A stretch of 64,000 bases of DNA, taken from assembly GCF_988243305.1 (NCBI RefSeq), contig NZ_OZ547136.1; one strand, 5' to 3'. The position numbers are program-made. Of the stretch, positions 33,001 through 35,014 are shown in pieces (the first letter of the stretch is position 1; each line of letters begins with the position of its first letter).

Positions 33001-35014
33001 ATGGCTGACGCCCTGCGCCTGGCAATCTGCGATGCGGGAAGTGGGTGAACTACAGCCAGCCAGTAATATAACCGCCAGCAGGGAAAACGATTTAATGGAG
33101 CTATTCATCATTGTTAACCTTAAATAATGTACGGAAAATTGCGAATAAGAAATTGCTGTTAAAATTAGAACGAATATCCCACGCCGACACCCGCACCGAA
33201 ATCAGATTGTGTATCCGCAGAAATACCTGCTTTAAGTACCGTATGCGTTCCGGCATTAAAAGATGTTCCTACAGACACCGCAGATTCACCGTTGAACGTT
33301 CCCGCTCCCGCTGACACCATCATCAAGTCACCGGTTTTCACCTGTGGTTGTGAGGCGATAGCGATGGCAGATGCAGTTCCCGCATTGGCTTCTTTACGAT
33401 TGTCCTCAACTTCGTTTTTCAGAGAATCGAAATGGTTATTGAGCGTGTTAATTTGTTGGCTGTTATCTGCGACCCGTTTTTGCGTGTTGGTTAACTGTTG
33501 CTGCGTTTGTGCGGAATCTTGTCTCAGACTTTCAATTTGCTCATGTGCCTGGACAGACTTCTGCGCCAGACTTTGCATTTGTTTATCGTATTGAGCCCTT
33601 TCTTTTTGCTGTTGTGCTGCCACATCGGTTGTCAGTGCATTCATTTTCTGCCCTTGTTCCGTGGTAGTGCGCTGATTAGCCTCATTTTGAGCCGCCAGCC
33701 TGGCATTAATCATCTCCTGATAATGCGCGGTATTTTGCGTATCTCCAGTCGCGGCGAGCGTTTTTTGTGTGGCTACGATCTGCGCCTGTTGCTCTGTAAT
33801 TTGCGTTTGCTGGGCATCAGTTACCGCAGACTGTCGGGCGTTGATCATGCTCTGATAACGGGCGGTTGTCTGTACATCACCTGTAGCGGCAACGGTTTTT
33901 TGTCCTGCGTCAGGATCTGTCTGGACAGGGGGAGTCTGAGTGGTATCAGGTGTTTCAGAAGGGATGTAGTGATGTTCAGTCAAATAGGTATACGCAGCGG
34001 GGCTGTTGTCTGTGCGTTCTAAAAAGCGGGTAATCTTCTGCTCAATCTCCGATTGCGACATGCCAGAGTTAATGGCTGAAAGCTCTGTTGCCGCCGCTTC
34101 AATGGTATCACCAGCTAAAACAACAGGGCTGGATGTTGCTGAAATTATGAGTGCCAGTAAAGCTACGTTTACAGTTTTCATTCATTTTCTCTTGTTCAAA
34201 ATAAGTCGCATTAATGTTTCTATAAGAAACAAATAATATTGTTTTAAGAAATAAACTGCGTTGCAATTTAATCGAAATCTACGCCGCCATTTGTGTGATG
34301 TAAAGCGCATTTTTGTCTGGTGTAAGCGTGAACACCACCAATAAGAAACAAAAAATGTTTCTTATATAAATAAAATCGAAAATCATTTTGTGCTCTTTCA
34401 ATGTAAAAAAGAGTAAAGACTTGTTTTGATAAGCGAAATAAATTCTGTTTCTGGACTAAACGTGAAGCGGTTCCTGATGTGTGCTAAAATGCGTTTCTTT
34501 GATAAATCTCAATTTTTAAGAGGTTTACGCCAGGCAGGAAAATTTAAATGAATGAATTTGAGAAGATTTTTAATGAAATGAATCTGGACCGGGCATTGCT
34601 ACCGATCCTTTTTCGTTCGAACCGGTCAACAGTGTGGAAATATTTAAGTGGCGATAGTACGGCTCCTGCCTCAGCTATGTCACTGATTATGCTGTTGCAG
34701 TTAATCCAGAAACGAAACCCCGATCTGTTAGCCGAATGGTTAACGCTTTCTGATTTCACCATTCCGCCAGAAGTTTACCTGGACCAGCCTGATTACTGGA
34801 AAGGGTGGGTGTATACGCAACACAAGGTCAATAAAAACGTCCTGGAATATCTAAAAAAACATTATCCGGATGAAGACCAAAAAAACATGAATAAAGGTAG
34901 TGACGAGTAATTTGCCAATGCCAGTTAATATAGCGGAGGCGGCCTACGATTCGGGCGCAGACTTCCAGGCATGATAAGACGCGCCCGCGCCGCATCAGGC
35001 ATCAGCGCATAACC

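What the first reader, a model, noticed from the sequence alone, without database searches (positions are those of the whole stretch)
34182..34910. Divergent control region with GTTTCT/AGAAAC palindromes and a possible small regulator next to the TAA-like operon
The AT-rich ~365-bp region upstream of the TAA-like gene contains a 6-3-6 palindrome (gtttct-ata-agaaac, near 34216-34230) and a perfect 9-7-9 inverted repeat using the same arms (ataagaaac-aaaaaat-gtttcttat, near 34341-34365). Repeated palindromes with shared half-sites in a divergent promoter region are typical operator arrays. The divergently transcribed 120-aa ORF has a plausible helix-turn-helix segment near its N-terminus and is the obvious candidate for the cognate regulator, although I cannot assign it to a family.
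Basis: inference. Interest (0 to 1): 0.4.

Follow-up and report, generated by a model that had tools for sequence, protein, structure and literature searches.

The report
Adhesin-island control region with uncharacterised HTH regulator

Summary
GTTTCTATAAGAAAC lies at 34216-34230 and ATAAGAAAC-N7-GTTTCTTAT at 34341-34365. The shared hexamer occurs 6 times in the 366-bp gap, against 0.32 expected.

The window is E. coli. The locus is O-island 29, between cueR and ybbJ, present in about 26% of complete genomes.

Orthologous gaps from other Enterobacterales show the two palindromes are the visible part of a conserved array. It has about 7-8 imperfect dyads, GTTTCY-N3-RGAAAC, phased at 22-23 bp. 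They are interleaved with two conserved predicted promoters.

This is a new member of a known kind, of moderate interest.

The parts
34548..34910 (+). [not shown]
33165..34181 (-). [not shown]
   Evidence: Pfam YadA_anchor at 278-337, E=1.6e-11; PDB anchors of AtaA and Hia; gmrA cloning primers map to 34158-34181 and 33164-33183
32689..33111 (-). [not shown]
   Evidence: ORF with a lipobox-like LLAGC; annotated 'lipoprotein' in O157; a co-linear protein of 115-175 aa is present in most related loci
32489..32692 (-). 67-aa hydrophobic protein, third gene of the operon. It overlaps the lipoprotein stop by 4 bases.
   Evidence: a 64-68-aa counterpart in L002-L005, L009 and L013
34216..34230 (.). 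Dyad O1, GTTTCT-ATA-AGAAAC (12/12). It lies in the predicted 5' transcribed leader of the adhesin operon. Only the left half is conserved across genera.
   Evidence: conservation 0.85 for the left half and 0.50 for the right
34238..34252 (.). Dyad O2, degenerate in E. coli (ATTGTTTTAAGAAAT), 22 bp from O1. It is a good dyad in orthologues, for example GTTTCTATAAGAAAT in L007.
34260..34275 (.). Dyad O3 (GTTGC...GAAATC), abutting the predicted -10 and overlapping the predicted transcription start of the adhesin promoter. The left half is highly conserved.
   Evidence: conservation 0.93
34276..34304 (-). Predicted sigma-70 promoter of the adhesin operon: -35 TTTACA (34304-34299), 17-nt spacer, -10 TAGATT (34281-34276). 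This is the most conserved block of the gap.
   Evidence: Promoter scan; hexamers TAAAGC and GTAAAG scored 1.00 and TACGCC 0.98 for conservation across nine genera
34335..34349 (.). Dyad O4. In E. coli only the right half, AGAAAC, survives. Orthologues have a full dyad, for example GTTTCTATTGGAAAC in L011.
34357..34371 (.). Dyad O5, GTTTCT-TAT-ATAAAT, 22 bp from O4.
34403..34428 (.). Conserved block TGTAAAaAAgAGTAAAGaCTTGTTTTG. Function unassigned. In L007 and L012 it contains a dyad-like site (O6).
   Evidence: conservation 0.77-0.83
34447..34461 (.). Dyad O7, GTTTCT-GGA-CTAAAC, centred about 43 bp upstream of the predicted start of the regulator transcript.
   Evidence: left half conserved at 0.94
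34482..34490 (+). Predicted extended -10 promoter of the regulator gene, TGcTAAAAT. It is TGGTAAAAT in most orthologues, including the distant L013-L016.
   Evidence: conservation 0.91
34493..34507 (.). Dyad O8, GTTTCT-TTG-ATAAAT, at the predicted transcription start of the regulator gene. This is the candidate autoregulatory site.
   Evidence: left half conserved at 0.96
34499..34512 (.). FNR-consensus-like box TTGAT-AAAT-CTCAA (9/10), overlapping O8 and just downstream of the regulator -10.
   Evidence: Found at the same place in 9 of 13 gaps; perfect in L007 and L014; the spacer varies while the half-sites are kept

Best explanation

Dyads O7 and O8 bracket the extended -10 promoter of its own gene. 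That would give autoregulation.

Dyads O3, O2 and O1 cover the start site and early leader of the adhesin promoter (TTTACA-17-TAGATT on the minus strand). O4 and O5 lie about 73 and 95 bp upstream of that promoter. This layout most simply predicts repression of the adhesin operon, possibly strengthened by looping between the two clusters.

Shown here: the motif array, its conservation and phasing, the conserved promoter-like blocks, the predicted HTH fold, and the conserved gene linkage.

For: Motif. There are 6 exact hexamers in 366 bp against 0.32 expected. It is the top hexamer over nine orthologous gaps (41 copies). Sites fall at equivalent positions in all genera. The left halves of O1, O3, O7 and O8 score 0.85-0.96 for conservation, against a gap mean of 0.68.

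Spacing. Sharp peaks at GTTTC-5-GAAAC (8), GAAAC-7-GTTTC (7) and direct repeats at 22/23 bp (15) and 44/46 bp (14).

E. coli alleles. O157 changes only the spacer of the 9-7-9 repeat. MS20674 changes only the O7 spacer, plus one base in the right half of O1.

Promoters. TTTACA-17-TAGATT was found by the scan and is the most conserved block. TGnTAAAAT is conserved even in relatives at 32-48% protein identity.

Linkage. All eleven distinct loci of the closer relatives place the gene divergent from a large surface-protein operon. Ten gaps are 308-379 bp; L014 is 231 bp as called. A YadA_anchor is on record in nine of them. The insertion sites differ: cueR/ybbJ, qmcA/fetA, qmcA/cnoX, next to nrdAB, ribC/MFS and others.

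A relative at 32% identity has AAGAAC-N7-GTTCTT where E. coli has AAGAAAC-N7-GTTTCTT.

Against: The window protein alone has no significant family hit: Pfam MqsA at E=0.12, no NCBIfam match, PDB sequence search at E=0.66.

The first AF2 run, with 10 sequences, was poor (pLDDT 57), so the fold rests on one deeper alignment.

Right halves of several dyads are weakly conserved (0.50-0.57). Plus-strand half-sites outnumber minus-strand ones 40 to 20. The true recognition unit could therefore be asymmetric.

Orthologous gaps are related sequences, so the counts are not independent events.

Transcription starts are predicted only.

Co-variation of z0640 and the adhesin in RNA-seq fits either repression with autoregulation or activation.

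A published z0640 deletion had no motility phenotype, and adhesin expression was not measured in it (PMC5826968).

Confidence: 0.6

Rival explanations
1. [not shown]
For: The gap has 31% G+C. O4 and O5 sit about 73 and 95 bp upstream of the adhesin promoter, a typical activator or anti-silencer position. z0640 and the adhesin operon rise and fall together in RNA-seq. From general knowledge, other E. coli trimeric autotransporters (UpaG, EhaG) are H-NS-silenced.
Against: Three dyads lie over and downstream of the predicted adhesin start site, and two bracket the regulator's own core promoter. That is the classical repressor layout. The structurally closest proteins are mostly repressors or autorepressors: Aca1, Aca2, HigA, MqsA and C-proteins.
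Confidence: 0.25
2. [not shown]
For: The unit is 15 bp with G at position 1 and C at position 15 and an AT-rich core, like the Fis consensus (my knowledge). AGAAACAT resembles an OmpR half-site. Published adhesin mRNA falls at high osmolarity (PMC5826968). A separate FNR-like box shows that host factors probably act here too.
Against: The conserved C at -3 and G at +3 of the dyad contradict the Fis consensus. OmpR-family sites are head-to-tail repeats with a 10-bp period, not dyads phased at 22 bp. The motif is confined to this gap within 64 kb. It travels with the cassette into different genera and different insertion sites. A relative with a changed recognition helix has a changed half-site at the same position.
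Confidence: 0.1
3. [not shown]
Confidence: 0.05

Closest known systems
XRE / Cro-C1 (lambda-repressor-like) HTH local regulators, such as restriction-modification controller C-proteins, HigA and MqsA antitoxins, and anti-CRISPR-associated Aca1/Aca2
   Different: The window protein has no significant sequence match to any Pfam, NCBIfam or PHROG family. The C-terminal 50-60 residues match only family members in AFDB. The partner is a trimeric autotransporter operon, not a toxin, a restriction-modification system or an anti-CRISPR gene. The array, with about 7-8 sites over 300 bp, is larger than the usual 2-3 operators.
[not shown]
   Same: It is the same locus. The O157 allele is 96.4% identical over 34182-34910. 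Published primers map exactly onto the window.
Cro/CI-type switch regulators of mobile elements
   Same: The most distant family members (P0037, P0039) are encoded in elements with a serine recombinase and T5orf172 genes, divergent from a leftward operon. One has 17-nt repeats 22 bp apart upstream.
   Different: The E. coli clade has no mobility or replication genes nearby. It is fixed next to an adhesin operon.

Membership tests
XRE / Cro-C1 HTH superfamily (Pfam HTH_3 PF01381 and relatives) | Five-helix lambda-repressor-like fold with a helix-turn-helix | tested here: met
   [not shown]
XRE / Cro-C1 HTH superfamily (Pfam HTH_3 PF01381 and relatives) | Significant match of the sequence to a family profile | tested here: inconclusive
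   The window protein hits only MqsA_antitoxin, at E=0.12. Among 24 family members, one each hits Xre-like-HTH (7e-5), MqsA (3e-5), HTH_3 (3.8e-4) and HTH_26 (4.5e-4). The profile search against PDB sequences gave E=0.66 to an Xre antitoxin HTH.
XRE / Cro-C1 HTH superfamily (Pfam HTH_3 PF01381 and relatives) | Sequence-specific binding to dyad operators | not testable with these tools
   Candidate dyads were identified. Binding needs EMSA, footprinting or ChIP.
MqsA-type antitoxin | N-terminal zinc-binding domain and an adjacent MqsR toxin gene | tested here: not met
   The weak Pfam alignment covers only the HTH part of the model, positions 76-129. The protein starts directly with the HTH. 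Its neighbours are REP elements and ybbJ, with no toxin gene.
Aca2-like anti-CRISPR-associated regulators | Encoded in an operon with an anti-CRISPR gene in a phage or mobile element | tested here: not met
   [not shown]
[not shown]
   Pfam YadA_anchor at 278-337, E=1.6e-11, covering the full model 1-60/60. Hits to AtaA and Hia anchors in the PDB.
FNR binding site | TTGAT-N4-ATCAA dyad | tested here: inconclusive
   The E. coli box matches 9/10 at 34499-34512. It is perfect in L007 and L014 and 9/10 in six more gaps, with a variable spacer. Occupancy by FNR cannot be tested here.

The most novel reading that the evidence does not exclude

Probability: 0.3. Interest if true: 0.6.

Novelty: new member of a known kind. 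Interest (0 to 1): 0.42.

Why it matters
The island is carried by about a quarter of complete E. coli genomes. Carriers include O157:H7, O55:H7, O145:H28, UTI89, RS218, S88, 042 and E2348/69 (PMC5826968 Table S4).

Its only published function treats the adhesin gene product as a transcription factor. Identifying the real HTH protein of the island, its candidate operators and both promoters gives a directly testable circuit for when this adhesin is displayed. A possible oxygen input through an FNR-like box adds a second testable link.

It also flags a probable mis-assignment that has been repeated in two later reviews (PMC9387321, PMC10877973).

Mechanistically it is an ordinary XRE-type local regulator, so the general novelty is modest.

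Tried and rejected
Family searches on the single protein gave nothing usable: Pfam, NCBIfam and PHROGs.

The first AF2 run with 10 close sequences was unreliable (pLDDT 57). It was replaced by a 24-sequence alignment.

The profile search against PDB sequences was not significant.

Rfam found no RNA family in the gap, only REP/naRNA4 elements downstream.

A terminator reading of the 9-7-9 repeat was rejected. The stem is AT-only with no T-run, and the scan reports nothing there.

A dispersed-repeat reading was rejected.

A toxin-antitoxin reading was rejected because there is no toxin gene.

The lipoprotein showed no sequence relation to any solved structure, so I could not establish a SadB-like role.

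FNR class II activation of a downstream promoter was rejected. The box-to-ATG distance is inconsistent among orthologues.

A CRP site over the adhesin -35 is possible. It would be centred near -32.5, which is not a canonical activating position, so I left it as an observation.

A scan of the K-12 fliA promoter fragment found no dyad.

With the narrow alignment it returned only 4 loci.

The literature search for trimeric autotransporter plus cueR gave nothing specific.

Full report
**Where we are.** The window is E. coli chromosome. The stretch 32480-35100 is 99.8% identical to several complete genomes. The local gene order is:
- the end of a giant SiiEA/BapA-type adhesin gene, a type I secretion ABC transporter and a HlyD adaptor;
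- cueR at 32078-32485 (+);
- a 67-aa ORF at 32489-32692 (-);
- a 140-aa lipoprotein at 32689-33111 (-);
- a 338-aa YadA-family autotransporter at 33165-34181 (-);
- a 366-bp gap;
- a 120-aa ORF at 34548-34910 (+);
- REP elements, then ybbJ.

The four genes between cueR and ybbJ are an accessory island. The gap plus the small ORF occur once each in 1415 of 5426 complete E. coli genomes, never on plasmids.

**The observation.** The shared hexamer GTTTCT/AGAAAC occurs six times in the 366 bp. It occurs 25 times in the other 63.6 kb. Dinucleotide shuffles of the gap give a mean of 0.32 and never more than 3. The 15-mer dyad with up to two mismatches occurs four times in the gap. It occurs four times elsewhere, and two of those lie in one duplicated coding segment.

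**Comparative anatomy of the gap.** Relatives of the 120-aa protein are few: 21 clusters by word search, and 24 representatives among 1.84 billion proteins by profile search. I fetched their loci. In each, the small gene faces away from a large surface-protein gene across a gap of 356-379 bp.

That neighbour carries a YadA_anchor on record in L002-L004, L009/L010 and L011. In L007 and L012 it is a 615-627-aa protein with no Pfam on record. In Symbiopectobacterium (L005) only short ORFs of 174, 64 and 115 aa are called there.

The cassette sits at different chromosomal sites:
- between qmcA and fetA in the Pseudocitrobacter-type loci L002-L004;
- between qmcA and cnoX in L007 and L009;
- next to nrdAB in Symbiopectobacterium (L005);
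- next to a chemoreceptor gene and an Xre-RES pair in L011.

Aligning nine gaps shows blocks of conservation separated by free-running sequence, with a mean column identity of 63%. Scored by position, the best-conserved hexamers are:
- TGTAAAGC and TACGCC, at 0.93-1.00;
- GTTTCT at 34493 (0.96) and at 34447 (0.94);
- TAAAAT at 34485 (0.94);
- the ribosome-binding region of the adhesin gene.

AGAAAC/GTTTCT is the commonest hexamer over all nine gaps, with 41 copies. It is enriched in each one: P<=0.0015 in eight gaps and 0.03 in L009.

**The motif is a phased array of dyads.** Scanning each gap for GTTTCTNNNAGAAAC finds sites at equivalent positions in all genera. Measured from the adhesin start codon they fall near positions 35, 57, 79, 153, 176, 215-225, 266 and 312.

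In E. coli these correspond to:
- O1, 34216-34230;
- O2, 34238-34252 (degenerate);
- O3, 34260-34275;
- O4, 34335-34349 (only the right half survives);
- O5, 34357-34371;
- O6, a weak site near 34395-34410;
- O7, 34447-34461;
- O8, 34493-34507.

Other genera keep fuller dyads there, for example GTTTCTATTGGAAAC in L011.

A spacing profile over nine gaps is sharply peaked:
- GTTTC-5-GAAAC, 8 cases;
- GAAAC-7-GTTTC, 7 cases;
- direct repeats at 22 or 23 bp, 15 cases;
- direct repeats at 44 or 46 bp, 14 cases.

This describes 15-bp dyads with 7-bp linkers, about two helical turns apart, all on one face of the DNA.

Two caveats apply. Right halves are less conserved than left halves. Plus-strand half-sites outnumber minus-strand ones 40 to 20.

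Among E. coli alleles, O157 changes only the spacer of the 9-7-9 repeat. MS20674 changes only the spacer of O7, and also one base in the right half of O1.

**Promoters.** The scan finds TTTACA-17-TAGATT on the minus strand at 34304-34276. This coincides with the most conserved block of the gap. I take it as the adhesin promoter, with a start near 34269.

Upstream of the small gene, an extended -10 (TGcTAAAAT, 34482-34490) is conserved. It persists even in relatives at 32-48% protein identity.

On these predictions:
- O3 covers the start region of the adhesin promoter;
- O2 and O1 lie in its leader;
- O4 and O5 lie about 73 and 95 bp upstream of it;
- O7 (about -43) and O8 (about +3) bracket the regulator's own core promoter.

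All start sites are inferred.

**The 120-aa protein.** On its own it hits nothing significant: Pfam MqsA HTH part at E=0.12, NCBIfam nothing, PHROGs nothing meaningful.

The profile search produced more distant members. With the 24-sequence alignment, AlphaFold2 gives pLDDT 90.9 and pTM 0.78. With ten sequences it had given 57.

Single family members hit Pfam Xre-like-HTH, MqsA, HTH_3 or HTH_26 at 3e-5 to 4.5e-4.

The predicted turn and recognition helix, residues 23-35 (RSNRSTVWKYLSG), hold most of the invariant positions.

In AFDB the full-length fold matches only uncharacterised proteins of Cronobacter, Hafnia, Pectobacterium and Ewingella. Beyond those, only the HTH domain matches.

The family is an unnamed offshoot of the XRE superfamily.

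**Linkage with the adhesin.** More distant members behave the same way. P0022 (48% identity), P0024 (44%) and P0027 (32%) are each divergent from a YadA_anchor gene followed by a 137-138-aa protein, again at new chromosomal sites.

Their gaps keep the TGGTAAAAT promoter. They also keep related half-sites:
- GGTTTCT three times in L013;
- GCAGAAA(C/G) three times in L014;
- AAGAAC-N7-GTTCTT in L015, at the position of the E. coli AAGAAAC-N7-GTTTCTT.

The L015 protein has a changed recognition helix, PRNTIFNYLNG. That is weak co-variation.

The most remote members, P0037 and P0039, sit in mobile elements with a serine recombinase and T5orf172 genes, divergent from a leftward operon. That placement resembles a Cro/CI-type switch. 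One of them has 17-nt repeats 22 bp apart upstream.

Published RNA-seq shows z0638, z0639 and z0640 expressed together in DMEM and all silent on HeLa-attached cells (PMC5826968, Table S3). That result fits either sign.

A host global regulator as the dyad reader is less likely, for four reasons:
- the dyad contradicts the Fis consensus at positions -3 and +3;
- its geometry does not fit OmpR-type head-to-tail sites;
- the motif is confined to this gap within the window;
- the motif travels with the cassette.

Their primers place these names on the window unambiguously:
- The gmrA expression primers are the first 24 bases of the 338-aa adhesin ORF (34158-34181, minus strand) and its last codons (33164-33183).
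- The z0640 deletion primer is 34510-34547, immediately upstream of the 120-aa ORF.
- The complementing gmrA clone starts at 34500, so it carries almost the whole operator gap.

Two later reviews repeat the regulator assignment.

I found no dyad in the K-12 fliA promoter fragment used for their EMSA.

**Other signals in the gap.** An FNR-consensus-like box overlaps O8 just downstream of the regulator -10: TTGAT-AAAT-CTCAA at 34499-34512, a 9/10 match. It is present at the same place in 9 of 13 gaps, perfect in L007 and L014, and its spacer varies. Its position suggests repression of z0640 by FNR, but this is inference only.

AAATGTGA-N6-GCGCA overlies the adhesin -35 and resembles a CRP site. 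Its centre, near -32.5, is not canonical.

A conserved block at 34403-34428 has no assignment.

**Verdict.** It is a new, unnamed member of a well-known kind of system: a small XRE-type local regulator with a dyad operator array in a divergent promoter region. Three things go beyond the ordinary. The array is large and strictly phased. The regulator is consistently partnered with a portable short-adhesin cassette. And the analysis conflicts with the published identity of the island's regulator.

Noticed in passing
[not shown]
   Followed up: yes
window 34499-34512: An FNR-consensus-like box, TTGAT-N4-CTCAA, lies just downstream of the regulator's -10. It is conserved in 9 of 13 orthologous gaps, perfect in two, and its spacer varies. 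It suggests oxygen control of z0640.
   Followed up: partly
window 34291-34309: A CRP-like sequence, AAATGTGA-N6-GCGCA, overlies the -35 of the predicted adhesin promoter. TGTGA scores 0.93 for conservation across genera, but the site centre (about -32.5) is not canonical.
   Followed up: partly
window 34403-34428: The block TGTAAAAAAGAGTAAAGACTTGTTTTG is conserved across genera (0.77-0.83) and has no assigned function. It could be a further operator (O6), a second promoter or another factor's site.
   Followed up: no
window 34968-35045 and 35068-35134: REP/BIME-type elements lie between the z0640 stop and ybbJ. The first is an Rfam naRNA4 match at 71.9 bits; the second is a weak match.
   Followed up: no
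window 46150-46930: A coding segment of about 70 bp is duplicated 675 bp apart (gataaacccaatattcgcctgac.gataagcagattctgatagaaacg...). Each copy contains GATTCTGATAGAAAC, a 1-mismatch match to the dyad. This looks like a duplication in an accessory gene cluster and is unrelated to the operator array.
   Followed up: partly
window ~28747-32081, and L001 1-5602: Upstream of cueR lies a giant SiiEA/BapA-related adhesin gene with its type I secretion ABC transporter and HlyD adaptor. The HlyD stop overlaps the cueR start. cueR is therefore flanked by two different adhesin islands.
   Followed up: no
L002-L016 (related loci): The same cassette (small TM protein, lipoprotein, TAA, divergent HTH gene) sits at different chromosomal sites in different genera. 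These include cueR/ybbJ, qmcA/fetA, qmcA/cnoX, next to nrdAB and ribC/MFS. No mobility genes are visible, so how it moves is unexplained.
   Followed up: partly
[not shown]
   Followed up: partly
L019 (E. coli MS20674, NZ_CP082062.1) 1084-2865: In this 93%-identical allele the adhesin CDS is annotated about 366 bp short of the conserved start codon, leaving a 732-bp 'gap'. This could be a frameshifted or mis-annotated adhesin gene.
   Followed up: no
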